Notes under the pieces: generated by a model | Told to the model about the DNA's origin: nothing | What the model saw: the letters and a program-made list of their open reading frames with translations, nothing else | Database searches by the model: none | NCBI GenBank assembly: GCA_035530075.1 | Contig: DATKVM010000002.1 | Span: 103,348 to 167,347 of the forward strand | Reading direction: 5' to 3' | Length of the DNA stretch: 64,000 nt | DNA from: Patescibacteria group bacterium | Lineage (GTDB): Bacteria; Patescibacteriota; Microgenomatia; UM-FILTER-40-11 | Made by a program: the position numbers and the translations under genes | In this document: in pieces, positions 5,858 to 30,616 of the stretch | Position numbering within the stretch: the stretch's first letter is position 1 | Layout: every line of letters begins with the position of its first letter

Positions 5858-7006
5858 TTAGCGGCGAACCAAGCGCAAGATGTCGTTGACGGTAATAAGA
5901 AGCATCAGGGCCAATAAAAAAGCCATGCCGGCGGTATTGACCCAAGACTCCACTTTAGGATTGGCCTTCTTTTTGGTCACCGCTTCATAACCCAAGAAAA
6001 TTAACCGTCCGCCGTCCAGCGCCGGTAAAGGAAGAATATTAATAATGGCCAAATTGACGGATAAAATCCCTAGAAATTGCAAAACCGCCAGGGCCCCATT
6101 TTTAGTCGCCTCGCTGGTAATTTGGAAAATCCCTACCGGCCCGGCAATGTCTTTCGGGACTTGACCTTTCGCGACCAAAGTCACTACCGTATTTTTTAGT
6201 CCCCCTAGAATCATCCCGCCCCAAGAAAGCGATTCTTTAAAGCCTTCCCGAGCCCCCAAAAAAGGCATCTGCCACCAAGGATATTTTTTCATTTCCGTAT
6301 CGGAGATCGCCACTCCCAGAGGGCCCTCTCCCTCCGGCGGATTTTCCCGAGGAATTAAGGACACCAGTAAATTCCCGTCTTTACAGGTGATCGTTGCTTC
6401 TGTTGAAGCCATCCCTCCCAAGACTTGCTGGCTCTCTTGACAAGGATTATCCTTCTCGCGCTGAATTTCCAGCCGAACTGTCTTCCCAGCTTTCTCTTTA
6501 GATAGTCGCACAAACTCCTCTGTCTGGCTAATTTTTTGGCCGTCAAGAGCAATTACCCAGTCATCAAGTTTTAATCGTGCCATTTCCGCCGGCGAGTTTC
6601 TGGCAATGCCGACAACTTTAATTTTCCCTGTTTCGGTAGGAATACCATAAACAAAATAAAGAATCGAAAAAGCGGCAATTGCCAAAAGCAGGTTCATACT
6701 TACCCCGGCCAAAAGCACCGAAAGTCTTTGAAGCAAAGACTTTTCAAAATAAGCTCTACCCCTCGAAGTCTGCTCCTCGGCAGACGAAGTGGGGCCATCC
6801 TCCCCATACAATTTCACGAAACCACCGATAGGAAGTGCATTAATTGAGTAAATTGTTTCCCCTACCTTTTTCCCCCAAATCCGCGGCGGCAAACCAAAGC
6901 CAAATTCTTCGACCAAAATCCCGGCTTTTTTAGCCGCCAAAAAATGGCCCAGCTCATGAACAAAAACCAAAATGGAAAGAATTAAGACGAAGACGATCAA
7001 AGTCAT
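5858..7006 (-). CDS. rseP: RseP-like site-2 zinc metalloprotease (M50) with PDZ domain
   Basis: HELGHF HExxH motif in the first TM segment, a central PDZ region and an LDGG motif (PLPALDGGRL) near the C-terminus. Confidence 0.8.
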   Translation of the reverse strand: MTLIVFVLILSILVFVHELGHFLAAKKAGILVEEFGFGLPPRIWGKKVGETIYSINALPIGGFVKLYGEDGPTSSAEEQTSRGRAYFEKSLLQRLSVLLAGVSMNLLLAIAAFSILYFVYGIPTETGKIKVVGIARNSPAEMARLKLDDWVIALDGQKISQTEEFVRLSKEKAGKTVRLEIQREKDNPCQESQQVLGGMASTEATITCKDGNLLVSLIPRENPPEGEGPLGVAISDTEMKKYPWWQMPFLGAREGFKESLSWGGMILGGLKNTVVTLVAKGQVPKDIAGPVGIFQITSEATKNGALAVLQFLGILSVNLAIINILPLPALDGGRLIFLGYEAVTKKKANPKVESWVNTAGMAFLLALMLLITVNDILRLVRR

Positions 7007-7086
7007 GAGAGTAAGTATAACCCCTTGAAAGTCTTATGTCCATCGCGACGATAAGGTTTCGCCGGTATAAAGAAAGAGTTAAAGAA

Positions 7087-7407
7087 TTACTGGGTAGCTT
7101 TGTTTTTTTCTTCGTAATATTTATTCAAAAAGCCTTCGGCAAAAGTTGTCATTATCTCATCCATTACCGTATCGGCATTTTTTCCGCTCCTTTTGGCGAA
7201 AATCTCCCGGATCATTAAGTTTGCCTCTTCTGGCACAGTACACTTATCAATCGCCGCCAAATCCTCTTCCGTTAAATTGGCCATCATTTCGGCGTTGAAC
7301 TTAACCGCCGCCGCTTTTGAAATTTCAGCAAGAATCTGCTCTATTTGTTCTTCGGTGTGTCTCTCGTTCTTAAGAACTGCTACCACCTCTTCAAGTTTTG
7401 TATTCAT
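7087..7407 (-). CDS. Small acidic helical protein; paralog of the 30311..30616 product
   Basis: 106 aa, about 40% identical to the 30311..30616 product. Shared segments include L..LKNE...EE.I...L.EI.K and LTEEDL..I.KC.V.EEA. Lies immediately downstream of a coiled-coil paralog in both loci. Confidence 0.55.
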   Translation of the reverse strand: MNTKLEEVVAVLKNERHTEEQIEQILAEISKAAAVKFNAEMMANLTEEDLAAIDKCTVPEEANLMIREIFAKRSGKNADTVMDEIMTTFAEGFLNKYYEEKNKATQ

Positions 7408-7415
7408 ATTCCTCC

Positions 7416-9428
7416 TTAAGGAGTTAGCTGGCTATAATATGAAACGTAGTCGGCAACGCTTCGGGTGTTGGCAATTTTGACAAGAGTCTCTTGTTGAACC
7501 GGGGTCAAAAGTTTGCCTAGATCAAATTCTGTCCCCGGTTGAACGATATCAATTTCGACACCATTCTGGCGGAGCATCTTGATCATTGAGCCAACCAATG
7601 ACTGTCTGGCAGTCACTCCATTTTCCGGATTAATCCAGCCTTCAATGCCATTTTGCTCCATCCACCTACCCACCGGCCCTTCTGCCTCTTTCCAGAACCA
7701 ACTTCCTCCGGGAATCCTAATTTTTTGAGCAAAGAGGTCGGCTCCTGCTTCTCTTGTCCCCTGGGTGGCGACAGAAGTAGCCGCTCTTATATCTGGCATC
7801 TCTATCTTAGGAACGCTGGTAACATGCTCGGGTCCAGTGGGAACTGGAGTAACTGGTATTCCAGTTGTGGCTCCGATCGGCGGTCTAACCGCATGAATTG
7901 CCGCTTCCACCGCCGGCGACAAGATTTGATAAGCCGCATGGACAATTGAGCCGACAGCCAAACCTGAAGCAAAGTCGCTAAGATAACCTGCTGCTCTGCC
8001 ATATTTCTTTCCCCGTTCAGTCATTTTGTCTATCAAAGCCTGGCGCCCAGTGTTATCTTGCGCCTGTTCAATTTGAGTAATTAATTTTTGCGATTCGCTG
8101 GTAAATGCGGCTTTAAGCCCCAAGTTAACCGAATTGATCAAAGCAACATTGGCAATGCCTTTAACTGCCGCCATTCCCGGGACGACGTCACTGACAAACA
8201 TCGACTCAACAAAACCGGCAGCAACACCCAACCCCCAAGCCGCCCAATCACCCTTATTTCTTCCTGGAGGAGGAAGGCTTTTCCACCAATCAGCGACTGC
8301 CTTGCCTAAAAGACGACGGAGCCTTCCTATTTTTTTTTGACTTTCCGCAGTCAGAGGAGCTCCCTCGGCCTGGCCAACTCCAGTTTCTGTGCTAATTCCG
8401 ACTCCTTGTAAAACAGCCGCCGTTCCCTCAACAACAGGACCGCTCGGCTGATCTTCCTGAAGTCCTCCTGCGACAACTGGTTGAGGTGATGCGCTGATTA
8501 CTGGCTCAATTGGCTCTGAGGCTGCCCCCCGATTTCCTACCACATCAACGGCTTCTTCTGCATTTAGAACATTGTTTCCGGTAACCTGGCCTCCACTGAC
8601 TGTTTTCTGGTTAGCAGAAAACCCGGCCACTCCTCCCTTAGCAATCTTTATTAATTGTCCAATTACTTCTGGATTGATTTCGGTAGGACTAGAGACATCT
8701 TGTACGGATTTCTCTTCAACAATGCTTTTATCTCTTCCGCCTAAAAGTTCCAATTTCCCATTAATTTCGTCTAGACGTCTTTGTTCTTTGGCCAATTCTT
8801 TTTGCAGGTGAGAACTTCCACCTTTTCCAATCTGCTCTTCAACCTCTTTAATTGTCTCTTCCGCTTCTCTCTGATTTGCCTCAAGAACTTCCCGAGATTC
8901 TCTTGGCAAATTGTCTTCTAAGGCATTTACCTCCGCATTGGTTCGAGATAGCCAAGCAACTTCATTTCTTAATTCTTCTCTTAACGGACCGGCGTTTTCG
9001 ATTCCTCCTTTTACCTCTATCTGTTCTTTTAATCCAGAAATCGCCTCTTCGATTTCGTTTCTCTGAGCAATTAGCTTTGGAGTTTCCTCAAAATATCTTT
9101 GAAAACGGTCAAGAGTTGCCAAGCTTCCTTCAGCGGATGAAATTCTAGCCTCAACCGCCTGGAGTCGCCTCTCTTCGTCTGCAAGCTCTTTGCCCAAATA
9201 AGAACTACCGCCTTTGGCTATTTGTTCTCTTATTCCTGAAATAGTTCCCAATGCTTCTTCCTTATCCTGGGTTAAACTTCTGGGACCGCCTTGAACGGCC
9301 TCTCCCGAAGAACCCACCAGTTCATTTATTCTCGACCGCTCCGCATCAAGAACTTCCCCCCAACCAACCACCCTTTGCTCCTGAACAACCGCAGGTTCAC
9401 GTTCTCCAATATCGCCTGTTTCTACCAT
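7416..9428 (-). CDS. Bitopic coiled-coil membrane protein, paralog family A. It has a repeated KGGSSHL coiled-coil unit and a C-terminal Trp-rich domain.
   Basis: 670 aa with two copies of the ..EQI.KGGSS(H/Y)L.KELA.E.RRL.. motif. A long block is shared with the 30642..32456 product (LDRFQRYFEETPKL, KGGIENAGPL). A WW(K/Q)SL motif precedes a hydrophobic segment, and the C-terminus carries a WFWK...W.NPENGV domain. Confidence 0.6.
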   Translation of the reverse strand: MVETGDIGEREPAVVQEQRVVGWGEVLDAERSRINELVGSSGEAVQGGPRSLTQDKEEALGTISGIREQIAKGGSSYLGKELADEERRLQAVEARISSAEGSLATLDRFQRYFEETPKLIAQRNEIEEAISGLKEQIEVKGGIENAGPLREELRNEVAWLSRTNAEVNALEDNLPRESREVLEANQREAEETIKEVEEQIGKGGSSHLQKELAKEQRRLDEINGKLELLGGRDKSIVEEKSVQDVSSPTEINPEVIGQLIKIAKGGVAGFSANQKTVSGGQVTGNNVLNAEEAVDVVGNRGAASEPIEPVISASPQPVVAGGLQEDQPSGPVVEGTAAVLQGVGISTETGVGQAEGAPLTAESQKKIGRLRRLLGKAVADWWKSLPPPGRNKGDWAAWGLGVAAGFVESMFVSDVVPGMAAVKGIANVALINSVNLGLKAAFTSESQKLITQIEQAQDNTGRQALIDKMTERGKKYGRAAGYLSDFASGLAVGSIVHAAYQILSPAVEAAIHAVRPPIGATTGIPVTPVPTGPEHVTSVPKIEMPDIRAATSVATQGTREAGADLFAQKIRIPGGSWFWKEAEGPVGRWMEQNGIEGWINPENGVTARQSLVGSMIKMLRQNGVEIDIVQPGTEFDLGKLLTPVQQETLVKIANTRSVADYVSYYSQLTP

Positions 9429-9706: not shown

Positions 9707-12700
9707 TTAAAAGTTCTCTAAAGGGTCTCTGTTGAGCCGAACAAAAGCAAGCATCCAGATTAAAGCTACCCCTAACAAGACAAACCCCAAATATTCCAAA
9801 TACTGGGGTAAGAAGATTAAAAATACTCTTGACTGTTCACTAATTCCTGATTCCTGCAGACTATCCAATCTCCATCCGTTTTCCCAATTATTAACCAAAA
9901 CATGGTTTCTAATTTCCTGACCCAAAACTGGCGCCAGAAGAGCGCTTAGCGGCGAGCGCTTAGCGTCTAGTAAGTAGGCGTGCCAACCGGAATGATAGGC
10001 TTGAGAAAGAACGAGCGTGCCTTCTGTTACCGGCTGGGAGACTTCATACAAAGTCGGGTTGGGATGAGCGGCCGAAAGCGGTGTTAGGGCGGCGGTGGAA
10101 ACCGGCAGTTTTTGCCGCGTTAAACATAGGCCCGTCAAAAAACCATAAGGGATGGGGTTAACCTTCACCGCTTGCAAATCGTTAACTGTCTTTTGCCGGC
10201 CGATGGCAATATTATCAAAATGCAAAGAGTAACCCAGCCCATCTTGAGCCATTGGCGGTTGAATTAAGTAAGTAGTCGCCGTTTTTTTGTCTAGATAAAG
10301 CTCTAAATCTACTTTCTGGTTAGTTAAATTTTCCAGCCAAAAAAGCAAGCTTCGGCCGGATAAATAACGGCTTTGAATCGTTAGCAGGTAACCGAATTTA
10401 TGAGGCAATTCAGGCAAAAGAAACGACGCACTGCAATTATTGGCATCTTGGGCACTCAAGCGCAAGATTTCCTTTCCCCCTTGAGAAACAATTTCACTCG
10501 CCACTTGACCGCTTTTGGCCTGGCTGCAGTTCCTAATCGTCAAAGGGTTAAGAGCCCGGGCAACCTCAATCGCGGCGCTAAAATAGCCGTTAACTTTGGG
10601 AATAAAGACCACCAGTTCACTGCCGTAATCTCGCACTTGGGGAATGAGAATCCGGGTTTTACTTAAGTCGTTTGGGTCAACCCAAACCAGCTCCTGACCG
10701 CTAAAAGAAGGCAGGTGTAAAAAATAATTAGTCACCGCCGAAGGCAGCTTTTGGCGAAAGACAAAATTATTTTCTCCCTCCTCAATTCCGAAATCCTGCT
10801 CGTTAGTATCCCGGCCACTAAAAAGCGTTCGGAAAGGATAATAATAATCGACCCGCTCTAAAACAGATGAGCTTAAGTAATGGCCTTGTTCCCAAAATGC
10901 TTGATCAAAATTGCCCCACTCATAAGGAGGATTAACCGTGGGAAGACTTTTGGCCCAATAAACGAAGCCGGCGGGCGGATTTTTCTCCACCCGATAAACT
11001 TTAATTTTGCCGAAGTTGGCGGTGAGGTTAAATTTGGGAGAGTCCAAAAAGGCCGTTAGCTCTTCCCACCCAGCGGCCCGCCAACTGGAGCTATTGACAT
11101 TGTTTTCATCAATTAAAATCCAGCTTACTTGATATTTCTCTAAAACCTTTTCAAAAAGTGGTTGATTTTTAGAAAACAAAGCATAAGAAATTTCCCAATA
11201 ATAATTTTCGTTTGCTCCCCCCCAAGGGTCAAAAGCGCGGTCCAAAATTGGCTGTTCTATGCCATACCAAATAAAGCCGGAACCGCTATAATCGCCTCCC
11301 GGCCAATGATAGAAACTCCACCCCCAAAAATTTGTCTGGGGAAAATTAGCAATTCGGCCACTTTCTCCTTGTTTTCGAAAAAAGTCAAAAAGTTGGAAAT
11401 ACTCCGGAGGGAAGACCACCTTTTCCTTCGCATAGAAAAGCTGCCCCTGGAAAACCGGCCAAACAAAAATCAACGGCAAGATTAAGAAAAATAAACAAAG
11501 CATCTCTCGGTAAAGCCTCCCTCGCCATCCCTCAAGCTTAAAACTCCCGGCCATGGCCAGACTGATACCATAAAAAATCGCTAAACCAAAAGCCGATATC
11601 GGACTGAACTTAGTAAAAGCAAAGCGAAAGAGCTGGGAAAAAAGCGGCAGACGATAAAAAATGGCGGCCGGTAAGGAAAGAAAAGGGGTATCATTAAGGA
11701 GCATTAAAAACCCGAATAAAAAAACCGGTAAAAACAACGCTGCCCGATGCTTTTTCTTAAAGGCCGCTACTGTCCCCCCCAAAGCCATCAGAAAAAGAAA
11801 ATAACCCAGCGCCTTTACCGGCGGTTTTTGCAGATACTCTTCCCAAGCACCCATCATCGGTTGAAATTGGTTTTCTTGATTTGGTTCGATATTGTCAAAC
11901 CAAAAGCCCTTAAGCAAGGCGACATTCTCTAAATTGCCGTACTTTTTATTGCGTAAATAGTTCTCCTCGGTGGACATCAAATTAATTTTTGACTTGAAAG
12001 TCACTTTAACATTGGTCAGGACAAAGTAAAGGTTCGGCAGCAACCAAAAAGCGTTGAGCATAAAAGTTAACAGGTAAATCAAAAGGATTCTTCGCCAACT
12101 CCCTTTTTGGCGCCACCAAAATAAGATAAGGGTCAAAGATAGGCTCGTCAGGTAGACCAAAAGAAAGGTCGCGACATAGCCTTGAGCCACCGCCAAAAGA
12201 TTAACCGCCACCAGCCAAAAAAGATGTTTTTTGGTCGGTTTTTCCAAGAACTTTAGAACCACCAAGAATAACCAAGGAAGAAAAGCGAAATGAAGGGAAA
12301 AGGCCTCGTAGGGAACAAAAAAAAGCTGCAGGGTCGCCAGGTTAAAAAGATAAAAGAAGCTGGCTACTAGCGCGCCCCTCTTTCTTTGCCAAGAGTCATT
12401 CTCCTGAGCTAAAACAAAATTTTTCAATAGGAAATAAAGGCCTAATGGCCCCAAGAGAAGCATTAAAAAGTGGAAAAAATAGCGCATAAAGGCAATGGGC
12501 AAGAAAAAAGCGAGGCTTCTTAAAAAAAGTTGACGAAATAAGTCGGCGGCGTGTCCCATGCCGGGAAGCAATCCTAAACCTTGGTACTCTTGCCAAGCAG
12601 AAAAAAATAAACGGCGTAAATTAACGGCGAAGTTAAATTCCGGGTGCAAATTATCCCAACCAGATAAAAAAGTGCCCGGTTGATAATTTAAACCGGCCAC

Positions 12701-12775
12701 GAGGAGAACAATGACGGTGATAAGTATCGTCGGCCACTCTATTTTTTCCTTAAGCCAATGACCCAGTTTTATCAT
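9707..12775 (-). CDS. Large polytopic membrane protein, putative GT-C-type glycosyltransferase (YfhO-like)
   Basis: 1022 aa. The N-terminal ~550 aa contain at least 12 predicted TM helices rich in aromatic residues, followed by a large soluble C-terminal domain. It sits immediately upstream of a GT2 gene. The family call is an inference. Confidence 0.45.
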   Translation of the reverse strand: MIKLGHWLKEKIEWPTILITVIVLLVAGLNYQPGTFLSGWDNLHPEFNFAVNLRRLFFSAWQEYQGLGLLPGMGHAADLFRQLFLRSLAFFLPIAFMRYFFHFLMLLLGPLGLYFLLKNFVLAQENDSWQRKRGALVASFFYLFNLATLQLFFVPYEAFSLHFAFLPWLFLVVLKFLEKPTKKHLFWLVAVNLLAVAQGYVATFLLVYLTSLSLTLILFWWRQKGSWRRILLIYLLTFMLNAFWLLPNLYFVLTNVKVTFKSKINLMSTEENYLRNKKYGNLENVALLKGFWFDNIEPNQENQFQPMMGAWEEYLQKPPVKALGYFLFLMALGGTVAAFKKKHRAALFLPVFLFGFLMLLNDTPFLSLPAAIFYRLPLFSQLFRFAFTKFSPISAFGLAIFYGISLAMAGSFKLEGWRGRLYREMLCLFFLILPLIFVWPVFQGQLFYAKEKVVFPPEYFQLFDFFRKQGESGRIANFPQTNFWGWSFYHWPGGDYSGSGFIWYGIEQPILDRAFDPWGGANENYYWEISYALFSKNQPLFEKVLEKYQVSWILIDENNVNSSSWRAAGWEELTAFLDSPKFNLTANFGKIKVYRVEKNPPAGFVYWAKSLPTVNPPYEWGNFDQAFWEQGHYLSSSVLERVDYYYPFRTLFSGRDTNEQDFGIEEGENNFVFRQKLPSAVTNYFLHLPSFSGQELVWVDPNDLSKTRILIPQVRDYGSELVVFIPKVNGYFSAAIEVARALNPLTIRNCSQAKSGQVASEIVSQGGKEILRLSAQDANNCSASFLLPELPHKFGYLLTIQSRYLSGRSLLFWLENLTNQKVDLELYLDKKTATTYLIQPPMAQDGLGYSLHFDNIAIGRQKTVNDLQAVKVNPIPYGFLTGLCLTRQKLPVSTAALTPLSAAHPNPTLYEVSQPVTEGTLVLSQAYHSGWHAYLLDAKRSPLSALLAPVLGQEIRNHVLVNNWENGWRLDSLQESGISEQSRVFLIFLPQYLEYLGFVLLGVALIWMLAFVRLNRDPLENF

Positions 12776-13689
12776 TACTCTGGAATTTCCCGTAATAACG
12801 CCCCATTAAAAATATTCCGCCAGCCCGCCGCCACTCCCTTTTGGGACATTTTCACCCCTCTAAATCGCATTCGGCAAAAAAGCGGATAAATTAACCCTTT
12901 GGGCAAAAGCGCCACGGCTAAAGCCTGGCCAAAATGAGAAAGCCATCCCCTCCCACTGGGGTGGTAATGATAAGCTTTTAAGGCTTTATTGCGAATAGAA
13001 AAAGTTGCCCGGAAGGTCTCCTTGGGATTTCTTAACGATAAAGAGTTGGCGCTTTGACGATAATACAAAACCGGCTCATCAAGATTAGCTAATTGTCCAT
13101 ATTGAGCCAGCTCAAAAACCAGTTCCAAATCATGAGCCAAGACAGAGTGATTATGATAAAAAATTTTTCCTTGGGGCAAAAGACGGCGATTAATCATACA
13201 GGCCGGATGCTGAATCGGGTTCATTTGAAAAAGCGAACGATAAATCACCCGGTGGTCAGTCGGAAACCTTTTTTCGCCAATAATTTCTCCTTCTTCATTA
13301 ATCAAAAGGCACTGACCGCCTACTATTACCACCTCGGGATGGTGATCTAAAAAACTTACTTGCTTTTCAATCCGGTCAGGAAAGGCAATATCGTCGGCAT
13401 CCATTCGGGCCAAGAACTGCCCCCGACTTCTTTCCAAACCAAAATTGGAAGCCAGACTGGGACCACAATTGCGGGGCAAAGAAAAAAGCGTTAGTCGCCC
13501 ATCTCTCTTTGCCCGCCTCACCGCTTTGGCGGCCGTTTTATCAGTAGAGCCATCGTCAACGACAATAATTTCCAGCTGGCGATAAGTCTGTTTAAGAAGA
13601 CTCTTGATGGCCAAATCAATAAACCGCTCAGTATTATAAGCGGTCATTAACACCGTTACCAACGGCCGGGACGAATTGTTTATTTTCAT
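12775..13689 (-). CDS. Family 2 glycosyltransferase
   Basis: VTVLMTAYNTERFIDLAIKSLLKQTY...EIIVVDDGSTD... with a DAD motif. The ORF-track extension 13690..13929 translates to W-rich nonsense and overlaps the neighbouring gene, so the start is placed at MKINNSS. Confidence 0.75.
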   Translation of the reverse strand: MKINNSSRPLVTVLMTAYNTERFIDLAIKSLLKQTYRQLEIIVVDDGSTDKTAAKAVRRAKRDGRLTLFSLPRNCGPSLASNFGLERSRGQFLARMDADDIAFPDRIEKQVSFLDHHPEVVIVGGQCLLINEEGEIIGEKRFPTDHRVIYRSLFQMNPIQHPACMINRRLLPQGKIFYHNHSVLAHDLELVFELAQYGQLANLDEPVLYYRQSANSLSLRNPKETFRATFSIRNKALKAYHYHPSGRGWLSHFGQALAVALLPKGLIYPLFCRMRFRGVKMSQKGVAAGWRNIFNGALLREIPE

Positions 13690-13813
13690 TTTTCTCTCAA
13701 CTGCTACCCACCAGTTCCCTGCTGGGCAAAAGTTGAGGGGAGAGAGTCTTTGGCTAAACGAAAGCTTCAAGAGGCTCTCTCCCCAGTAAGTAACCGTAGA
13801 CATACCGCAACCG

Positions 13814-14794
13814 CTAGATTTCCACCTCCTGGCCCTCCGAGTATTTACGATGGAACTCGGCTTGATGGGCCGACCAGCGCTCATCCAAAGCGGTTTGGCT
13901 AGGGAAGGGAAAGGATGTTCCTCGACCATCCCAGGAGTAGGTTTGGCCGCTGTTCAGCTTGACCAGCAAGGCTTTGCCGTCTTTGGTTGTCGTTTCCACA
14001 ATCGCCGGACCTTCGACTTCTGCCGAACTTTGACCAACGGGTTGGCTGACAGTGACGAGTGACGAAAGAGCCAAGTCAGAATCGCTCGAGCCGGGATTGC
14101 TAGAGGTGTTGCCGGCCGAGGACGTCTGAACCCGAACCACGAGACGGAAAGCGGAGACTTGATCGGGCAGCACCACAATCCCTGTCTGCATTTCGCCGTC
14201 GCGAATTCGAAGCTGCTCGGCTTGCAACTGGATGTTCTCTCGCACGGCTGCTTCATCTCCAGCGAAGAGCCAAGCGGTTCCGCCGCGATGACCGCGAATC
14301 CAAACGACCGTTCCTGGCCGAATGGCGAAGGTCCATCGTTCTGGAACTACCGTCTCCTCAAAGGCCATCTCCGTCCAAACTTGACCGACAATCCAACAGA
14401 TTTCGGAGAGACCACCAATCGGCGACTCGCCGTAAGTCTCGCCAAACTCCTGGTTATCAGCGTGCCAGATAATCCCGCAGCAGGGACAGGGAGCGGGTGC
14501 CGCCGGAGCCGGAGTGGGACCACCGCCAACAGGTTGAGGCGGAGGTACCGGTGTTACCCCCCCACCCGCAGCCACAGCCGGGACTACCTTAACCGAGACG
14601 ACCGGGGCGACGACGCTGGCCACGACTGGCTGAGCAAGGCTCACTGGGGCCGCCAGTTCACTGGCCTGCGCCAATTCCTCTACCCGTGCTTGAACATCGG
14701 AGCGAAGACTAGCAACCCAGACCAACAGAATCGCCAGCACCAGTAAGAAGACGGCCCTTTTCATCTTTTTCTCCTTTCGGTATGCCATTGTCAA
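13814..14794 (-). CDS. Pro-rich membrane-anchored protein with a Trp-rich C-terminal domain (paralog P1)
   Basis: Signal/anchor helix, an A/V/P-rich linker (PVPPPQPVGGGPTPAPAAPAPCPCC), then a WHADNQEFGETYGES...CWIVGQVWTE...TAWLFAGDEAAV domain shared with 17512..18255 and partly with 16516..17130. Local GC is about 60%. Confidence 0.5.
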   Translation of the reverse strand: MTMAYRKEKKMKRAVFLLVLAILLVWVASLRSDVQARVEELAQASELAAPVSLAQPVVASVVAPVVSVKVVPAVAAGGGVTPVPPPQPVGGGPTPAPAAPAPCPCCGIIWHADNQEFGETYGESPIGGLSEICWIVGQVWTEMAFEETVVPERWTFAIRPGTVVWIRGHRGGTAWLFAGDEAAVRENIQLQAEQLRIRDGEMQTGIVVLPDQVSAFRLVVRVQTSSAGNTSSNPGSSDSDLALSSLVTVSQPVGQSSAEVEGPAIVETTTKDGKALLVKLNSGQTYSWDGRGTSFPFPSQTALDERWSAHQAEFHRKYSEGQEVEI

Positions 14795-14923: not shown

Positions 14924-15541
14924 TTAGCGTCGATTAAAAACCGCCAAGACAACCCCCATCATCGCCGTTACTGCCGATAAAACTAATGAAAGTGTTAAAC
15001 CGGAAAAACCGGTGGGGGGAAGAACCGTCACTGCCGCCACTTTCTTGGCCGCACAAACTTTGGCGGTATCCTTATCGTGTCGATCCCCCGCTTGCGCTTC
15101 GGCAATATTAACATCACAAACTACATTTTGATTTTGAGGTAAATTTCCTTCTTCCACTACCCGAGCTTTGATTTCTCTTTCTTCAGTTTCCCCCGAGGTC
15201 AAGTCGGTAATTTCAAAAGAAAGACTGCCTGAACTAAGGCGCAAGAAGAATGGCAAAGTATCAGAAACGGTTACTTTATCTAAAGTAGCGTCGCCCACAT
15301 TTTTAATTCGCAATTGAAAAACGACTTCTTCTCCCGGAGCGAATTTATGATCAGTAATATCCAAATTATCGACAAATCGCTGGTTTACCGGATCAAGGAC
15401 AACTTTGTTTATTTGCAGTTCACCGGTTTTAATACAAACCTCCCCTCCGTATTGTTGCTCGCAGCGAACCGCCGCTTGCGCGTCGGCCATTAGCCAAAAG
15501 CAAGCTAAAAAGGAAGCGGCCAGAAAAACAATTTTTTTCAT
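14924..15541 (-). CDS. LPXTG-anchored surface protein with a DUF11 (CARDB-like) domain
   Basis: Signal peptide, DUF11-like segment (GEEVVFQLRIKNVGDATLDKVTVSDTLP), C-terminal LPPTG motif, hydrophobic helix and NRR tail. Confidence 0.7.
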   Translation of the reverse strand: MKKIVFLAASFLACFWLMADAQAAVRCEQQYGGEVCIKTGELQINKVVLDPVNQRFVDNLDITDHKFAPGEEVVFQLRIKNVGDATLDKVTVSDTLPFFLRLSSGSLSFEITDLTSGETEEREIKARVVEEGNLPQNQNVVCDVNIAEAQAGDRHDKDTAKVCAAKKVAAVTVLPPTGFSGLTLSLVLSAVTAMMGVVLAVFNRR

Positions 15542-15691: not shown

Positions 15692-16426
15692 ATGGAAATA
15701 ATCCTTTACGACGCTCAGCCATTAACGGAAAAAACTACCCCCACTTTGAGGCAACCGCTCATGGTCCTTTGGCGGCAAGCTCGGTCAACCAGCAAGCGAG
15801 CCTTTCGCTTAAGCGGTTACATTTTAATATTGCTATCTTTCTTAATCTCAGTGGTAGTGGCCGGGCCAATAGTAATTCAGGAAGTCGGTTATCGGCTTAC
15901 TCAAAAGCCTTTTGCCTCTCAAAAGGAAGGGCCTTCGAATCCCGCCTTAAAAGAACAGCGCCAGCAAGCAGCGGAAGAAGCGCGTAACTACGGCGTGAGT
16001 CCCGACTTTTCCATTGTTATCCCCAAGATTGACGCTAAAGCAAAAATTATCCCTAATGTTAATCCCGCGGATGAGAGGGAATACAAGAACGCTCTCAAAG
16101 AAGGCGTTGCTCACGCCTCAGGAACCAAATTTCCCGGCCATAAAGGCACCATTTACCTTTTTGCCCACTCGACGAATTCGCCCATCAACATTGCCCGTTA
16201 CAATGCCGTCTTCTACCTTTTAAAAGAACTTCGCAAAGAGGATGAAATTATTATTTTTTTCGCCGGCCAAAAATATGTTTATCGGGTCACTGAGCGTTTT
16301 GTCACCGCCGCTGACGACACCAAATGGCTAACTAATCAAGAAAAAGAAGAACAGCTGGTTCTCCAAACTTGCTGGCCACCGGGAACCAGCCAAAAAAGAC
16401 TGCTGGTAATTGCCAAACCGGCCTAA
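15692..16426 (+). CDS. Sortase (class A/E-like transpeptidase)
   Basis: N-terminal TM anchor, catalytic His (IYLFAHST), TLxTC Cys motif (LVLQTCWPPGT) and a downstream Arg (KRLLV). Divergently adjacent to the LPPTG substrate gene. The true start may be the internal Met at about 15761. Confidence 0.7.
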   Translation: MEIILYDAQPLTEKTTPTLRQPLMVLWRQARSTSKRAFRLSGYILILLSFLISVVVAGPIVIQEVGYRLTQKPFASQKEGPSNPALKEQRQQAAEEARNYGVSPDFSIVIPKIDAKAKIIPNVNPADEREYKNALKEGVAHASGTKFPGHKGTIYLFAHSTNSPINIARYNAVFYLLKELRKEDEIIIFFAGQKYVYRVTERFVTAADDTKWLTNQEKEEQLVLQTCWPPGTSQKRLLVIAKPA

Positions 16427-18458: not shown

Positions 18459-20612
18459 ATGATTAAAGAAGACTTACCTTTTTCCCTCATTGAAATCCGA
18501 TTACCAAAAAACAGTGAGAAAACGCCCGAAGCCGCTCTTCAGCTGTTCGCTTCTTTCTCTTCTCTTCCCCGAAAACCGCTCTTCTCCCTTAAACCGCCAG
18601 TCAGTATCGGTTTTGAGATTGTTTCCATCGATCAGCTAATTCATTTCTTAATTGCTTGCCCGAAAGAGTGGCAAAATTATGTGGAAAGCCAAGTTTCCGC
18701 TCAATACCCGGAAAGCGTAATGACTCTCTTGCCCAAAGACTACTTGGCCGGTTATCTTCCTAATTTTACCCCCTCGGTCGGGCAACTAGTCCTTTCTTCC
18801 CCTTTTTATCTTCCCTTACGAACTTTTCGCGACTTAAAAGAAACTGATTTGCTTTCTTCCGTTTTAGGAGCAATGTCTAAATCTTCCCCCAACGATTTTA
18901 TAGTTTACCAAATATTAATCGCTCAAGCGGGTAATTGGCAGGGCTTTGCCCAAGGACTTATTAATAAAGGCATTCCCTCCGGCGAAGAAGGCAAAGTTCT
19001 TCCCCACCCCCAAGCTAAAAATATCACTTTAAAAATTGGCAGTAGCGGTTTCTGGACGGCAATTCGTCTAATTACTAACTCTGCTACTTCCCTTCGGACT
19101 TTGGCTAATACCTTTTCCAGTTATCAGGGTGAGGTTAATTCCTTAAGATTTAAAGAGCCCTACTCTTTTCAGCGGAAAAAATTAATCGATGCCTGCCTTA
19201 AGCGTTCTTTCGAGCTGGCACCAGCTAATCAAGTCCTTAATTTAGAAGAATTAGCTTCTTTATGGCATCCACCCGGGAAAATACTTTCCGGAATAAAGAA
19301 TATTGCTTGGACTCAAGAAGCAATGTCCGAACCCCCCCTTAATTTACCGGTAGCGGCCGATATCGATGAAGCGGATAAAAAAGAAATTAATTTTTTCGCC
19401 CGGGCCGAATTTAAAAACCGAATTGCCACTTTCGGGATAAAGAAAAAAGACCGGCGACGGCACATCTATATTATCGGCAAAAGCGGCACCGGCAAATCAA
19501 CTTTAATCGCTAATATGGCCATTAATGATTTGCGCAATAAAGAGGGCTTGGCGGTGATTGACCCTCATGGAGATTTAACGGAAATCCTTTTGGACTACAT
19601 CCCCTCTTTCCGCATTAACGAAACTTGCTTTCTTGATCCCAGTGATACGGAATATCCTTTCCACTTAAATCCGTTGGAAATTAAGAATCCCGCTCACAAA
19701 GAATTAGTCGCTTCGAATATAGTCGCGATCTTTTACAAGCTCTATTACTATTCTTGGGGGCCACGGCTGGAATACATTCTGCGCAACACGATTCTTACTT
19801 TACTGGAAACTCCCCAACCAACTTTAGTTCAAGTAATCGACCTTTTGGCCAATAAAAACTTCCGACGGCAGACAGTAGAAAAATTGGAAAATCCGGTTTT
19901 GAAAAATTTTTGGCTGAATGAATTTGAAAAGATGGACGAGAGGACCAAAGCGGAAGCTATTTCGCCCATTCTCAATAAAGTCGGCCAATTTACTTCTTCC
20001 CCGACGATTCGCCAGATTATTGGCTCCTATCATTCAACCGTTGATTTGGAAAAGATTATGAACGAAGGCAAGGTGCTTCTGGTCAACCTCTCTCAAGGAA
20101 AAATCGGTGAAGATAACGCCGCCTTACTGGGAGCAATGATTATTACTCAGCTTCAATTGGCGGCAATGAATCGTATCCGCATGCCTGAAGAAGAAAGGCG
20201 CGACTTTTATCTTTATGTCGATGAATTTCAGAATTTTGCCACCAGCGCATTTACTAAAATCCTTTCTGAGGCGCGCAAATATCGGCTCGATCTTTGCCTA
20301 GCCAACCAGTACATCGGCCAGCTAGGCGAAGAGTTACAAAAAGCAATTTTCGGCAACGCAGGAACGCTCGTTTCTTTTGTTATTGGCGCTCAGGACGCTA
20401 AACTCTTGACCGGAGAAATGGGCCAGGTTTATAAAGAAGAAGACCTGGTTTCCTTAGGGATGTACCAAGTCGCCTTGAAGCTTTGCATTGACAATTTAAC
20501 TTCGACTCCATTTTTAGCCAGCACTTTACCACTTCCCCGTTGCCGTAATCAAAACCGAGAGAAAGCGCTCCGAGTTTCTAAAGAGAAGCACACCGTTAAA
20601 AAGAAGGGTTAA
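18459..20612 (+). CDS. VirD4/TraD/TrwB-like (type IV coupling protein family) P-loop ATPase with an uncharacterised ~330-aa N-terminal domain
   Basis: Walker A IIGKSGTGKST is followed by AVIDPHGDL, as in TrwB (GTTGSGKS...VIVDPNGD). Walker B is YLYVDEFQNF. A conserved LANQYIGQL Gln block and GNAGTLVSF match TrwB/TraD. No N-terminal TM helices are evident. Confidence 0.6.
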   Translation: MIKEDLPFSLIEIRLPKNSEKTPEAALQLFASFSSLPRKPLFSLKPPVSIGFEIVSIDQLIHFLIACPKEWQNYVESQVSAQYPESVMTLLPKDYLAGYLPNFTPSVGQLVLSSPFYLPLRTFRDLKETDLLSSVLGAMSKSSPNDFIVYQILIAQAGNWQGFAQGLINKGIPSGEEGKVLPHPQAKNITLKIGSSGFWTAIRLITNSATSLRTLANTFSSYQGEVNSLRFKEPYSFQRKKLIDACLKRSFELAPANQVLNLEELASLWHPPGKILSGIKNIAWTQEAMSEPPLNLPVAADIDEADKKEINFFARAEFKNRIATFGIKKKDRRRHIYIIGKSGTGKSTLIANMAINDLRNKEGLAVIDPHGDLTEILLDYIPSFRINETCFLDPSDTEYPFHLNPLEIKNPAHKELVASNIVAIFYKLYYYSWGPRLEYILRNTILTLLETPQPTLVQVIDLLANKNFRRQTVEKLENPVLKNFWLNEFEKMDERTKAEAISPILNKVGQFTSSPTIRQIIGSYHSTVDLEKIMNEGKVLLVNLSQGKIGEDNAALLGAMIITQLQLAAMNRIRMPEEERRDFYLYVDEFQNFATSAFTKILSEARKYRLDLCLANQYIGQLGEELQKAIFGNAGTLVSFVIGAQDAKLLTGEMGQVYKEEDLVSLGMYQVALKLCIDNLTSTPFLASTLPLPRCRNQNREKALRVSKEKHTVKKKG

Positions 20613-26091: not shown

Positions 26092-26808
26092 CTACCATTT
26101 CTGGTTAGAAACAGGTTTCTCTATAGAGGCAATAGCTTTTTTCTCAATAATTTTCGCAATTTTTTCTAGCGGTAATGAGCCGTCAATTTTTTCGAAACCT
26201 CTACCGATCATTTTTGAAATAAAAAGATATCCTTTCCTAACTCTGTGAAAATATTCTAAATCTTGATAATCGTGGACACAATCGCGTTTCTTCCGTTTAG
26301 ACTTTCTTTCTCGCCCGACTTCAGGGGCAACATCAAGATAAAAAACCACGTCGGGGCAAACTCCCGCCACGGCAATTTGGTTTATTCTCCAAATGTCTTT
26401 CCACCCGAGACCACGAGCAAATCCTTGATAGGCTAAACTAGAAAAGAATGAACGTTCAGAAACAACAATTGCTCCTCTTTCTAAAGCCGGACGGAGTACG
26501 ACGGCAATGGCCTGACAACGGGAAGCGGCCAAAAGAAAAGCTTCAGAGTAAGGAACCAACCCCTCTCCTGACCGTGAGTGACTAATAATCACATCTCTCA
26601 CCTGTTCGCTTTTTTCGGTTCCGCCTGGTTCGTGCGTGTAAACTATTTCTCTGTCCGGATACCTCTCTTTAAGGAATTCATGAAGTAACTTTGCCTGTAT
26701 GCTTTTACCACATCCACCGATTCCTTCAAATACGAAGTATTTACCAGGTAATCTGTGCCCTAATAATTTATACATTTTTTTAGGCATTTCATCTCTTGAA
26801 AAAATCAA
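26092..26808 (-). CDS. tmk: Thymidylate kinase
   Basis: P-loop FVFEGIGGCGKSIQAKLL, DRY-like region and lid. 238 aa. Confidence 0.8.
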   Translation of the reverse strand: MIFSRDEMPKKMYKLLGHRLPGKYFVFEGIGGCGKSIQAKLLHEFLKERYPDREIVYTHEPGGTEKSEQVRDVIISHSRSGEGLVPYSEAFLLAASRCQAIAVVLRPALERGAIVVSERSFFSSLAYQGFARGLGWKDIWRINQIAVAGVCPDVVFYLDVAPEVGRERKSKRKKRDCVHDYQDLEYFHRVRKGYLFISKMIGRGFEKIDGSLPLEKIAKIIEKKAIASIEKPVSNQKW

Positions 26809-28303: not shown

Positions 28304-28945
28304 CTACGATAAATTAATTTTGAACCGGCGCTTTAATTCTTTTACCTTTCCTTCGCGAATCAATTTCGTCTCCTGCTGACTTTTTTCCCTAAATATCCCC
28401 ACCCGAGAACCATTTTCCGCGAAACGGCTTTTGTGGGGTTTGACATAATTATTCAGCTGATGGAAGACCAGTTGGCAAAAGCGCTCTCCTGGATAGATCC
28501 TGATGACTTGTGAAGGCGTATTATTTCTGATGGGGATAATCAGATTGCCTTTGTAACCAGCATCGACGATCCCGCTCAAATCAACCGAGAGTCCCCGCCG
28601 GTTAACCGAAGAGCGCGGATAGAGAATGCCCATTAGGTCAGCTGGCAGTGAAATTTTTTCCAAAGTATTAACCACGACAAACTCTCTAGGTAAAAGCTCA
28701 AAATGCTGGCCCACCTCTAGAGTCATTGTTTCAAAATGTTGCCTATCAACTCCAGAAAGATAATCGATATTCAAGACCGTCCGCCCTTTTTCCGTCATTT
28801 CCCAAGATTTGGGGATCATAAAGTCAAAGCCCAGGCGCAAATCAACTGAATGAGTTTGAATTTGAAATTCATCAAGAGAAGGATAAAAAGAAAGCTCATC
28901 CCGGCTAATCCTTTGTAAAATATCTTTCTTCGTCAAAACTGACAT
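28304..28945 (-). CDS. dcd: dCTP deaminase
   Basis: IQTHSVDLRLG and GIVDAGYKGNLIIPIRN (the dUTPase-superfamily GxxDxGYxG motif), plus CQLVF. Confidence 0.8.
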   Translation of the reverse strand: MSVLTKKDILQRISRDELSFYPSLDEFQIQTHSVDLRLGFDFMIPKSWEMTEKGRTVLNIDYLSGVDRQHFETMTLEVGQHFELLPREFVVVNTLEKISLPADLMGILYPRSSVNRRGLSVDLSGIVDAGYKGNLIIPIRNNTPSQVIRIYPGERFCQLVFHQLNNYVKPHKSRFAENGSRVGIFREKSQQETKLIREGKVKELKRRFKINLS

Positions 28946-30310: not shown

Positions 30311-30616
30311 CTAGCGAGGTGAAACTCTTTTAGCTAGAAATTCCTCAGTGGCCGTTGTTATCGTCTCCTCCAGCAAAGACTGAGGGCTCTTGCCGGTCCT
30401 TTGAGAATAGCGTTCCTTAATTTCAAAATCGGCTTCTTCCTGAACAGAGCATTTATTAATCACTTCCAGGTCCTCTTCAGTCAGAGCGGCGGCCATTTCC
30501 GTATAGAGCTTAGTGGTCGCGTTTTTCGTAATCTCTTCCAAAACCCTGTCAATCTCCTCCTCGCTTTGTCCTTCATTCTTTAGGGTTTGAATTAATGAAT
30601 CTAGTTTTAAATTCAT
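30311..30616 (-). CDS. Small acidic helical protein; paralog of the 7087..7407 product
   Basis: 101 aa (MNLKLDSLIQTLKNEGQSEEEIDRVLEEITK...LTEEDLEVINKCSVQEEA...). Same position downstream of a coiled-coil paralog. Confidence 0.55.
   Translation of the reverse strand: MNLKLDSLIQTLKNEGQSEEEIDRVLEEITKNATTKLYTEMAAALTEEDLEVINKCSVQEEADFEIKERYSQRTGKSPQSLLEETITTATEEFLAKRVSPR

What the first reader, a model, noticed from the sequence alone, without database searches (positions are those of the whole stretch)
7087..9428. Paralogous two-gene module (bitopic coiled-coil protein plus 100-aa acidic protein) present twice, with a third solo paralog
The gene pair at 7416..9428 / 7087..7407 is mirrored by 30642..32456 / 30311..30616, with a further large-protein paralog at 29010..30254. 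The large proteins share:
- A repeated EQI.KGGSS(H/Y)L.KELA.EQ.RL coiled-coil unit.
- A long conserved block (LxxxQRYFEETPKL...KGG..NAGPL).
- A WWxxL(S/P)P motif just before a single TM helix.
- A C-terminal extracytoplasmic domain with (G)WFWK.AE...W......W.NEENG(V) followed by a PGQ/PGT motif.

I cannot map this to any characterised family. Cytoplasmic coiled coil, one TM helix and a Trp-rich outer domain is reminiscent of envelope-spanning scaffolds or signalling proteins. The conserved 100-aa acidic helical partner immediately downstream in the same orientation suggests a dedicated two-component module, such as a chaperone/adaptor paired with a membrane scaffold. Duplication within 25 kb suggests diversifying paralogs.
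Basis: seen in the sequence. Interest (0 to 1): 0.7.

Follow-up and report, generated by a model that had tools for sequence, protein, structure and literature searches.

The report
Wall-anchored membrane protein with small partner
A candidate-phyla (Patescibacteria) genome carries a conserved, uncharacterised gene pair: a membrane protein with a very divergent LysM-like outer domain that probably binds the cell wall, always followed by a small acidic helical protein. The pair is real and rare, but its function is still inferred.

Summary
A_large (7416..9428) with A_small (7087..7407) is paralogous to B_large (30642..32456) with B_small (30311..30616). C_large (29010..30254) shares only the C-terminal domain.

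**The pair is conserved.**
- Wherever a non-C-type large gene had at least 150 nt of downstream sequence, a 101-121 aa mostly acidic helical ORF followed. It lay 1-51 nt downstream on the same strand. This was 12 pairs of 12, across 11 loci.
- Eight of these small proteins are clear homologues of A_small.
- The small gene evolves more slowly than the large one. B_small is 87% identical to its orthologue, against 50% for B_large, with dN/dS 0.115.

**The C-terminal domain is rare.**
- It matches 36 of 1.84 billion cluster representatives, one of them spurious.
- It is nearly always C-terminal.
- AlphaFold2 models it confidently (pLDDT 92) as beta-alpha-alpha-beta plus three helices.
- It has no neighbour among solved structures.
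- Profile-profile comparison indicates a remote, expanded LysM relative. The signal is moderate and weak for the window copies alone.

**Best reading (inferred).** The large protein has its N-terminus in the cytoplasm and its C-terminus outside. It tethers a variable cytoplasmic coiled coil to the cell wall. The small cytoplasmic protein docks near the conserved WWxSxSP motif.

**Rivals.** A type IV secretion (T4SS) accessory, or a signalling sequestration module.

I rate it a new variant of a known kind, of moderate interest.

The parts
7416..9428 (-). A_large, 670 aa. Order of parts: cytoplasmic repeat/coiled-coil region, WWKSLPP motif, three weakly hydrophobic membrane segments, Pro-rich linker, C-terminal LysM-like domain.
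   Evidence: ORF. It is identical to the public protein P0001, 'hypothetical protein VMW04_00860', from a Patescibacteria group bacterium. Homologues P0013, P0015, P0021, P0022 and P0024 share the membrane module and the C-terminal domain.
8718..9278 (-). A_large residues ~51-237: three copies of a ~45-50 aa helix-KGG-helix unit (EQI.KGGSS.L.KEL..E..RL). The middle copy is degenerate and holds the QRYFEETPKL block.
   Evidence: Internal alignments give z=14.5, 7.1 and 5.1 against shuffles. The region is 48% identical to B_large. The only other hits are weak matches to the coiled-coil arms of Rad50/SMC-like models.
7914..8297 (-). A_large residues ~378-505: juxtamembrane WWKSLPPPGRNK motif plus the membrane module (WGLGVAAGFVES..PG..KGIANVALIN..NLGL and YLSDFASGLAVGS).
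   Evidence: Conserved columns in alignment A8. Hydropathy. K/R count is 5 before and 1 after the last segment. The number and orientation of the membrane passes are inferred, not shown.
7419..7757 (-). A_large C-terminal domain (113 aa modelled): beta-alpha-alpha-beta core with an inserted W-x-N-x-E-N-G loop, followed by three helices. A remote LysM-like module.
   Evidence: 35-sequence alignment A4 with an invariant Trp. AlphaFold2 pLDDT 92.4, pTM 0.84. hhalign against LysM gives 82.7% probability and score 30.8; shuffled controls reach at most 14.1. No solved-structure neighbour.
7087..7407 (-). A_small, 106 aa, pI 4.7, a five-helix cytoplasmic protein. It starts 8 nt after the A_large stop codon.
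   Evidence: ORF. AAGGAGG overlaps the A_large stop codon. 38-54% identical to the small genes that follow A-like large genes in L011, L013, L014, L015 and L018. AlphaFold2 pLDDT 91.9.
30642..32456 (-). B_large, 604 aa as the longest ORF; the likely start is at 32402, giving 586 aa. Order of parts: the same N-terminal repeat region as A_large, WWQRLSP motif, one clear transmembrane helix (residues 447-465), short linker, C-terminal domain (30645..30980).
   Evidence: The C-terminal half is 82% identical to the orthologue in L007, while the N-terminal half is only 27% identical.
30311..30616 (-). B_small, 101 aa, pI 4.6, paralogue of A_small. It starts 25 nt after the B_large stop codon.
   Evidence: P0004. 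It is 87% identical to the L007 orthologue, with dN/dS 0.115.
29010..30254 (-). C_large, 414 aa as the longest ORF; the likely start is at 30203, giving 397 aa. Order of parts: short coiled coil, one transmembrane helix (residues 224-242), Pro-rich linker, C-terminal domain (29013..29363). It has no small partner of its own and lies directly downstream of B_small.
   Evidence: P0006. The orthologue in L007 sits in the same position and is 48% identical. A C-type relative, P0011, is likewise followed by dcd.

Best explanation
This is a lineage-restricted two-gene envelope module, so far seen only in Patescibacteria.

**Large protein.** It is a membrane protein with its N-terminus in the cytoplasm and its C-terminus outside. 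After the last membrane pass comes a flexible Pro/Thr/Ala-rich linker. The linker carries a ~100 aa domain that is a very divergent, expanded LysM relative. This domain most likely binds a GlcNAc-containing wall glycan, probably the cell's own peptidoglycan, and so fixes the protein to the wall. The cytoplasmic part is a fast-evolving, exchangeable helical repeat or coiled-coil region. It would act as a scaffold or reach-out arm.

**Small protein.** It is a mostly acidic five-helix protein with no signal peptide or transmembrane segment, so it is cytoplasmic. It is probably made in step with the large one, given intergenic gaps of 1-51 nt and a Shine-Dalgarno sequence over the stop codon. I infer that it docks on the conserved cytoplasmic juxtamembrane segment (the W(W/L)xSxSP..RNK motif) rather than on the variable repeats. 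In that position it would act as the adaptor or regulator that links the wall-anchored protein to a cytoplasmic process.

**What is shown and what is inferred.**
- Shown: paralogy, pair conservation, purifying selection on the small gene, rarity of the domain, and confident predicted folds.
- Moderately supported: LysM ancestry, and the N-in/C-out topology.
- Inferred: wall binding, physical interaction of the two proteins, the docking site, and the cellular process served. Cell-shape or division machinery is one candidate, because the B locus sits beside mreB-mreC-PBP2 and a polysaccharide deacetylase.
For: **Pair conservation**
- A small mostly acidic helical ORF directly follows the large gene in window A, window B, L007, L009, L010, L011, L013, L014, L015, L016, L018 and L020. 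That is 12 of 12 pairs with room downstream.
- Eight of the small ORFs are homologous to A_small at E=1e-7 to 1e-37.
- B_small is 87% identical to its orthologue, against 50% for the large gene, with dN/dS 0.115.

**Partner type tracks the membrane-proximal module**
- Small-1 proteins go with large proteins that carry WWxSxSP-type motifs.
- Small-2 proteins (L009, L016, L020) go with Gly-zipper-type membrane regions.
- The B orthologues keep the small protein and the juxtamembrane/C-terminal half (82% identical), while the N-terminal half is only 27% identical.

**C-terminal domain**
- It has 36 hits in 1.84 billion representatives and is nearly always C-terminal. One protein carries three tandem copies, as wall-binding modules often do.
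- The AlphaFold2 model has pLDDT 92.4 and beta-alpha-alpha-beta topology.
- hhalign against Pfam-verified LysM sequences gives 82.7% probability over the full LysM length; 0 of 100 shuffles reach that score.
- One member, P0035, passes the Pfam LysM score cut-off through its first strand only.

**Topology.** K/R counts before and after the last transmembrane segment are 5 and 2, 7 and 3, and 5 and 1. The linkers are Pro-rich.

**Context.** The B locus lies beside mreB, mreC, PBP2 and a polysaccharide deacetylase.
Against: - **No ligand, interaction or localisation was tested.** No multimer prediction was possible.
- **The neighbourhood varies between loci,** so the mreB-side context is not a conserved clue.
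- **The two small-protein subfamilies are not demonstrably homologous** (hhalign E=0.031).
- **A_large's hydrophobic segments are weak** (Kyte-Doolittle maximum 1.33), so its topology is uncertain.
Confidence: 0.5

Rival explanations
1. The pair is an accessory of the Patescibacteria type IV secretion system. The large protein would anchor or position the secretion machine in the wall through its LysM-like domain. It would fill the wall-contact or bitopic-scaffold role that is poorly accounted for in these systems. The small protein would be a cytoplasmic adaptor or substrate-handling factor.
For: - In L009 (Daviesbacteria), L013 and L018 the pair's gene string is divergently adjacent to TraC-like and PrgI (VirB3-like) genes, with VirB4 next to them in L013 and L018. 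The TraC-like and PrgI-like neighbours of L009 and L013 are homologous to each other.
- L014 has a T4SS pilin gene 4 kb away.
- The window has a VirD4/TraG-like coupling protein at 18459..20612, 9 kb from the A pair. Its orthologue lies 8 kb from the B-type pair in L007.
- PMC12102498 reports that VirB8- and VirB1-type components are rarely detectable near virB4 in Patescibacteria.
Against: - The domain family is far rarer (about 35 clusters) than the T4SS, which that paper finds in thousands of Patescibacteria genomes.
- NadD, NadE and PP2C genes separate the pair from the T4SS genes in L013 and L018.
- L013 and L018 are related genomes, so they are not independent observations.
- There are no T4SS structural genes next to either window pair, or in L010, L011, L016 or L020.
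- The C-terminal domain is not the NTF2-like fold of VirB8.
Confidence: 0.15
2. The pair is a trans-envelope signalling module of the sequestration type. The LysM-like domain would sense wall fragments or host glycans. The large protein would hold the small cytoplasmic protein at the membrane and release it on signal. Release might follow regulated intramembrane proteolysis or phosphorylation. The freed small protein would then act on a cytoplasmic target.
For: - The architecture matches known sequestration modules: cytoplasmic N-terminus, outer C-terminus, and a small soluble partner encoded in the same operon.
- An RseP-type site-2 protease (Peptidase_M50 with a PDZ domain, 5858..7006) lies 80 nt downstream of A_small on the same strand.
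- A PP2C phosphatase gene lies directly upstream of the large gene in L013 and L018. An FHA-domain gene lies two genes upstream in L011.
- The small protein is the most conserved part, as expected of an effector.
Against: - RseP adjacency is seen only at the window's A locus.
- PP2C/FHA adjacency is seen in only two lineages.
- No kinase is adjacent.
Confidence: 0.15
3. The small ORF is not a functional partner. Its position after the large gene would be chance or a leftover, and the large proteins would be ordinary single-gene wall-binding proteins.
For: - C_large and its relatives work without a small gene of their own.
- The small-2 and L010 small ORFs show no significant similarity to A_small.
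Against: - Adjacency holds in 12 of 12 pairs, with gaps of 1-51 nt.
- dN/dS is 0.115.
- The small protein is 38-54% identical across lineages in which the large proteins share only 24-38% identity.
- AlphaFold2 gives a confident fold (pLDDT 91.9) from three sequences.
- A_small has a strong Shine-Dalgarno sequence.
Confidence: 0.03

Closest known systems
LysM domain (Pfam PF01476), the GlcNAc-glycan/peptidoglycan-binding module
   Same: - The topology is beta-alpha-alpha-beta.
- The first strand has the form 'V.I..G(D)..FW'. The last strand is preceded by 'pG(D/Q).f.l'.
- Profile-profile alignment covers the full LysM length in the same register.
- The domain sits outside the membrane on a flexible linker, and one family member has it in tandem copies.
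   Different: - There is a ~17-residue insertion between the helices. It carries the family's invariant Trp and the W-x-N-x-E-N-G loop.
- Helix 2 is longer, and there is a C-terminal extension of three helices.
- The ligand is unknown.
MapZ (LocZ) of Streptococcus pneumoniae, the division-site beacon
   Same: Both are membrane proteins with a cytoplasmic N-terminal domain, a membrane anchor, a flexible linker and a C-terminal extracellular subdomain (PMC4931243, PMC7055233). From my own knowledge, that MapZ subdomain binds the wall, and MapZ is a substrate of the StkP/PhpP kinase-phosphatase pair. A PP2C phosphatase gene is adjacent to the pair in L013 and L018.
   Different: - There is no sequence or detected structural similarity.
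- MapZ has no obligate small partner gene.
- MapZ's cytoplasmic domain is largely disordered rather than a helical repeat.
- MapZ is confined to Streptococcaceae and relatives.
- The resemblance is architectural only.
FimV / HubP / TspA family (LysM-anchored polar scaffolds of Proteobacteria)
   Same: A LysM-type wall-binding domain, one transmembrane helix and a large acidic, repeat-rich cytoplasmic scaffold that recruits partner proteins (my own knowledge, not tested here).
   Different: - The order is opposite. In FimV/HubP the LysM domain is N-terminal and periplasmic, with the scaffold C-terminal. Here the scaffold is N-terminal and the LysM-like domain C-terminal.
- There is no sequence similarity and no conserved small partner.
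- The host organisms have two membranes.
ExeA-ExeB (GspA-GspB) of type II secretion
   Same: A two-gene operon. It encodes a membrane protein with a cytoplasmic domain and an outer peptidoglycan-binding domain, plus a small partner encoded next to it. The pair couples a secretion machine to the wall (my own knowledge).
   Different: - ExeA has an AAA+ ATPase domain and a PG_binding_1 domain, not a coiled coil and a LysM-like domain.
- ExeB is itself a membrane protein, whereas the small protein here is soluble.
- There is no homology.

Membership tests
LysM domain (PF01476) | Match to the Pfam LysM model above its gathering score (20.9 bits) | tested here: not met
   A_large, B_large and C_large give no LysM hit even at E<=1. 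Among 35 family members one matches, at E=0.0023. P0035's domain alone scores 23.3 bits, but only through residues 21-31 aligned to model positions 2-12.
LysM domain (PF01476) | Remote homology by profile-profile comparison over the whole domain | tested here: inconclusive
   hhalign of the 35-sequence profile against seven Pfam-verified LysM sequences gives 82.7% probability, score 30.8, with 52 of 53 columns aligned. The reversed control scores 11.0. One hundred column-shuffled controls average 8.8 and reach at most 14.1. Without the seven GDTxW-type rows the score is 20.8 (16.9% probability). The window copies alone score 19.9.
LysM domain (PF01476) | Beta-alpha-alpha-beta fold with a two-stranded antiparallel sheet | tested here: inconclusive
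LysM domain (PF01476) | Binding of GlcNAc-containing glycans (peptidoglycan, chitin) | not testable with these tools
   This needs a binding assay with the purified domain.
VirB8-like T4SS components (PrgL/TraM type) | Bitopic protein with a C-terminal NTF2-like alpha+beta domain | tested here: not met
   The C-terminal domain model is mainly helical with only two short strands. There are no Pfam T4SS hits for any of the five proteins.
Anti-sigma factor / sigma factor pairs processed by site-2 protease | The soluble partner is a sigma-70-family protein, and the membrane protein has an anti-sigma domain | tested here: not met
MapZ | Sequence or fold similarity to the MapZ domains | tested here: not met
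Phage or defence-system proteins | Match to PHROGs or PADLOC models, or relatives on viral contigs | tested here: not met
   - PHROGs: nothing significant.
- PADLOC: only weak coiled-coil-arm matches at E>=2e-4.
- Viral contigs: no relatives.

The most novel reading that the evidence does not exclude
The pair could be a previously unrecognised, Patescibacteria-specific system that physically couples the cell wall to a cytoplasmic machine. One version is a MapZ-like positional beacon for division or elongation in organisms that lack most known positioning systems. Another is a wall or host-glycan anchor that works with the chromosomal T4SS in the epibiotic lifestyle. In either case the small five-helix protein would be a new kind of adaptor, and the C-terminal module a new branch of the LysM superfamily with its own ligand-binding loop (W-x-N-x-E-N-G).
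Probability: 0.15. Interest if true: 0.75.

Novelty: new variant of a known kind. Interest (0 to 1): 0.5.

Why it matters
Patescibacteria make up a large share of bacterial diversity. They have tiny genomes and lack many canonical cell-biology systems, and a large share of their genes have no assigned function.

Here a gene pair is kept together across lineages that have diverged widely in sequence. It is kept in up to three large-gene copies in a genome of this kind. The small partner is under strong purifying selection. That pattern points to a function that matters for the envelope of these cells.

The work gives three concrete handles:
- a defined, confidently modelled outer domain with one invariant Trp, which can be tested for wall or host-glycan binding;
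- a predicted docking motif (WWxSxSP) for the small partner;
- a family-level alignment from which a new domain model could be built.

If the wall-anchor reading is right, it adds a divergent branch to the LysM superfamily. It would also be an example of a wall-tethered scaffold with an obligate soluble partner.

Tried and rejected
**Family and database searches**
- Pfam, NCBIfam, PHROGs and PADLOC scans of all five proteins gave no meaningful family.
- Word-indexed homologue searches with A_large and A_small returned only the same species. The profile of the two small proteins added one orthologue, P0005.
- HMM searches of PDB sequences with the domain profile and the small-protein profile returned only designed repeat proteins and noise.
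- Viral contigs hold no relatives.
- P0008 (Fn3 repeats) in the exhaustive search is a false positive caused by 'NWLPPEGGVS' repeats.

**Locus scans**
- The genome-contig scan with the small-protein alignment found nothing.
- With the C-terminal domain it found one locus, L009.
- The metagenome scan also found one locus, L010.
- The 35-sequence alignment was too diverse for pattern design.

**Structure**
- The afdb50 library was unavailable.
The model therefore rests on three sequences.

**Ideas dropped**
- From memory I suspected the small protein might be a DUF5663-type CPR protein. No Pfam hit supports this, so I dropped it.
- Homology between the small-1 and small-2 subfamilies, and with the L010 small ORF, is not significant. 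hhalign gives E=0.03-0.1, although the same segment aligns each time.
- I looked for a third conserved gene beside the pair. The upstream and downstream neighbours are not shared, apart from a large downstream protein common to L014 and L018.
- Promoter and terminator scans gave no more sites than shuffled sequence.
Full report
**1.

The minus strand carries five ORFs:
- A_large, 7416..9428, 670 aa
- A_small, 7087..7407, 106 aa
- B_large, 30642..32456, 604 aa
- B_small, 30311..30616, 101 aa
- C_large, 29010..30254, 414 aa

Pairwise similarities:

| Pair | Region | Identity | E-value |
|---|---|---|---|
| A_large / B_large | ~268 aa of N-terminal region | 48% | 5e-61 |
| A_large / B_large | last ~105 aa | 26% | 6e-11 |
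| A_small / B_small | 96 aa | 47% | 1e-26 |
| C_large / A_large | transmembrane-to-C-terminus part | 27% | 3e-16 |
| C_large / B_large | transmembrane-to-C-terminus part | 24% | 4e-7 |

A six-frame search finds no further copies in the window.

It occurs three times in both A_large and B_large, as two strong copies flanking a degenerate one that holds the QRYFEETPKL block. Unit 1 against unit 3 gives z=14.5 over shuffles.

Three small corrections apply:
- Public gene calls start B_large at its second Met (586 aa) and C_large at Met18 (397 aa).
- A_large has three weakly hydrophobic segments rather than one clean helix. B_large and C_large each have one clear helix.
- C_large lacks the N-terminal block and the WW motif.

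The sequence comes from a Patescibacteria-group metagenome-assembled genome, with locus tags VMW04_00855, 00860 and 00960.

**2. The small ORFs are genes, and the pair is a conserved unit**

A_small starts 8 nt after the A_large stop codon, with AAGGAGG overlapping that stop.

A related organism (L007, a 290-kb contig) has the same string as the window's B locus: polysaccharide deacetylase, large, small, C-type large, dcd. Identities there are:

| Protein | Identity to window copy |
|---|---|
| Small protein | 87% |
| B_large | 50% |
| C_large | 48% |

dN/dS for the small gene is 0.115.

I then looked up the contigs that encode more distant family members. Every non-C-type large gene with at least 150 nt of downstream sequence is followed by an ORF of 101-121 aa. 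The ORF lies 1-51 nt downstream on the same strand, and its pI is 4.3-5.4 in all but one case (6.6 in L018). The loci are window A, window B, L007, L009, L010, L011, L013, L014, L015 (cut by the contig end), L016, L018 and L020. In L012 and L019 the contig ends too soon to tell.

Eight of the small proteins form one clear family, small-1. A_small is 38-54% identical to those of L011, L013, L014, L015 and L018, with E down to 1e-37. The corresponding large proteins share only 24-38% identity with A_large, mostly in their C-terminal halves.

Three others (L009, L016, L020) form a second family, small-2. Within small-2, E ranges from 2e-52 to 3e-8. Small-2 aligns with small-1 only weakly, though in the same segment (hhalign E=0.031). 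The L010 small ORF matches neither family significantly.

C-type large genes have no small gene of their own. In the two genomes where the upstream side can be seen, they sit right after a pair. A third C-type gene is likewise followed by dcd.

**3. The C-terminal domain**

A profile of the three window copies was searched exhaustively against 1.84 billion cluster representatives. It gave only 36 hits at E<=0.001, one of them spurious (Fn3 repeats). The domain is C-terminal in all but one member. P0030 has three tandem copies.

Pfam finds nothing in 35 full-length members except one weak LysM hit.

The 35-sequence alignment shows one invariant Trp within a W-x-N-x-E-N-G loop. A Gly in the 'pG(D/Q)' turn and a Tyr near the end are nearly invariant.

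Some members begin the domain with 'V.PGDTLWSI', the LysM signature. I therefore tested LysM directly:
- Seven LysM sequences recalled from memory were first verified against Pfam (E=1e-11 to 1e-20).
- hhalign of the family profile against them gave 82.7% probability and score 30.8, over 52 of 53 LysM columns. The register matched the predicted strands and helices.
- The reversed control scored 11.0. One hundred column-shuffled controls averaged 8.8 and reached at most 14.1.
- The signal weakens without the most LysM-like rows. It falls to 20.8 (P=0.0015) when seven rows are dropped, and to 19.9 for the window copies alone.

I therefore call the domain a remote, expanded LysM relative with moderate confidence. 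It differs from LysM by a ~17-residue insertion carrying the invariant Trp, a longer second helix, and a three-helix tail. It is not a LysM family member in the Pfam sense.

**4. Architecture and topology**

The segment before the last transmembrane helix is richer in Lys/Arg than the segment after it: 5 against 2 in B_large, 7 against 3 in C_large, and 5 against 1 in A_large. What follows is a Pro/Thr/Ala-rich linker. This fits a cytoplasmic N-terminus and an outer C-terminal domain.

A-like members (P0013, P0015, P0021, P0022, P0024) share a conserved juxtamembrane and membrane module. It reads W(W/L)xSxSPxxRNK, then WGxGxGxGLxES..PG..KGIANxAxINxxNLxL, then YLxDFAxGxAAGS. Other members have Gly-zipper-like membrane regions instead.

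The N-terminal regions are highly variable across the family. P0022 and P0024 keep the W(Q/E)(R/Y)YF..PE block. Many other members show no similarity there.

**5. A mosaic that points to the docking site**

B_large's C-terminal half is 82% identical to its L007 orthologue. That half comprises the juxtamembrane segment, the transmembrane helix and the outer domain. Its N-terminal half is only 27% identical to that orthologue, yet 48% identical to A_large in the same genome. So the cytoplasmic repeat region has been exchanged between paralogues, or replaced in one lineage.

Through this change the small protein stayed 87% identical. The type of small partner also tracks the type of membrane-proximal module: small-1 goes with WWxSxSP, and small-2 goes with Gly-zipper regions. 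Both facts suggest, by inference only, that the small protein binds the conserved cytoplasmic juxtamembrane segment and not the variable repeats.

**6. The small protein**

**7. Context**

- The B locus sits in the string mreB, mreC, PBP2, dprA, topA, polysaccharide deacetylase, B_large, B_small, C_large, dcd, thyX, tmk, SHMT.
- The A locus sits between a 1022-aa polytopic protein with a GT2 glycosyltransferase upstream, and an RseP-type site-2 protease 80 nt downstream.
- In L009, L013 and L018 the pair's gene string is divergently adjacent to T4SS genes (TraC-like and PrgI, with VirB4 also in L013 and L018). L014 has a T4SS pilin gene nearby.
- L013 and L018 have a PP2C phosphatase gene directly upstream of the large gene. 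L011 has an FHA-domain gene two genes upstream.
- The window and L007 each have a VirD4-like gene 8-9 kb from a pair.
- Chromosomal T4SS clusters are widespread in Patescibacteria and lack recognisable VirB8 and VirB1 in most lineages (PMC12102498).

These associations are suggestive but inconsistent. The only invariant unit is the pair itself.

**8. Interpretation**

Most likely (about 0.5), the pair is a wall-anchored membrane scaffold with a cytoplasmic adaptor. The LysM-like domain fixes the protein to peptidoglycan or another GlcNAc-containing polymer. The variable coiled coil reaches into the cytoplasm. The small protein binds near the membrane.

The rivals are:
- a T4SS accessory (0.15);
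- a sequestration-type signalling module, possibly using RseP or PP2C/FHA (0.15);
- a meaningless adjacency (0.03), effectively excluded.

The closest known analogues are architectural only. They are MapZ (PMC4931243, PMC7055233), FimV/HubP and ExeAB. None is homologous beyond the LysM-like module.

**9. Verdict**

The finding is real and well bounded. The claim of no known family needs softening, because the outer domain is a divergent LysM relative.

It is a new variant of a known kind: a wall-binding-domain membrane scaffold, here with an obligate small partner of unknown fold class. It is rare and confined to the lineages sampled here. The taxonomically labelled records are all Patescibacteria; the other contigs carry no taxon label. 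Function remains inferred. Interest is moderate (0.5).

Noticed in passing
window 31500..32402 versus 8529..9428, and L007 8117..9991: Mosaic evolution. The N-terminal ~300 aa of B_large are 48% identical to A_large but only 27% identical to B_large's own orthologue in L007. The C-terminal half is 82% identical to that orthologue. So the cytoplasmic repeat domain was exchanged between paralogues, or replaced in one lineage.
   Followed up: partly
window 5858..7006 (-): An RseP-type site-2 protease (Peptidase_M50 with a PDZ domain) lies 80 nt downstream of A_small on the same strand. It has a promoter-like site of its own at 7042..7014. This adjacency was not seen in the other loci.
   Followed up: partly
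window 9707..12775 (-) and 12775..13929 (-): A 1022-aa polytopic membrane protein with no Pfam hit lies immediately upstream of the A pair. A GT2 glycosyltransferase overlaps it by one base. It looks like a large envelope glycosyltransferase of unknown family.
   Followed up: no
window 14924..15541 (-), 15692..16426 (+), 18459..20612 (+): A DUF11 surface-repeat protein, a sortase and a VirD4/TraG-like T4SS coupling protein lie 6-11 kb from the A pair. The coupling-protein orthologue in L007 (85% identical) lies 8 kb from the B-type pair instead, so the region has been rearranged.
   Followed up: partly
L013 1..4905, L018 1..5917, L009 1..2278, L014 119..1153: T4SS genes sit divergently next to the pair's gene string in several lineages: TraC-like and PrgI, with VirB4 also in L013 and L018, and a T4SS pilin in L014. 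A PP2C phosphatase gene lies directly upstream of the large gene in L013 and L018. An FHA-domain gene lies two genes upstream in L011 (64..936).
   Followed up: partly
P0030 (1669 aa; residues ~1266-1669): One family member carries three tandem copies of the C-terminal domain at the end of a very long low-complexity protein. It was the only multi-copy architecture seen.
   Followed up: no
L009 7791..13052, L018 8916..13043, L013 8785..12480, L014 7167..7934: Very large genes (1231-1753 aa, no Pfam hits) follow the small gene in several loci. The ones in L014 and L018 are homologous over ~200 aa (32% identical). The others show no similarity to each other.
   Followed up: partly
L011 999..2435: The 478-aa coiled-coil gene upstream of the large gene is separated from it by a 2-nt gap. 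It contains 'ETWQDYLGNEEEI', which resembles the W(Q/E)(R/Y)YF..PE block of the A_large and B_large N-termini. The cytoplasmic region may be encoded as a separate gene in that lineage. BLAST does not confirm this.
   Followed up: no
window 26789..28300 (-), 28304..28945 (-): ThyX (flavin-dependent thymidylate synthase) and dCTP deaminase follow C_large. In L007 thyX is missing from the otherwise syntenic string (dcd, tmk, SHMT).
   Followed up: no
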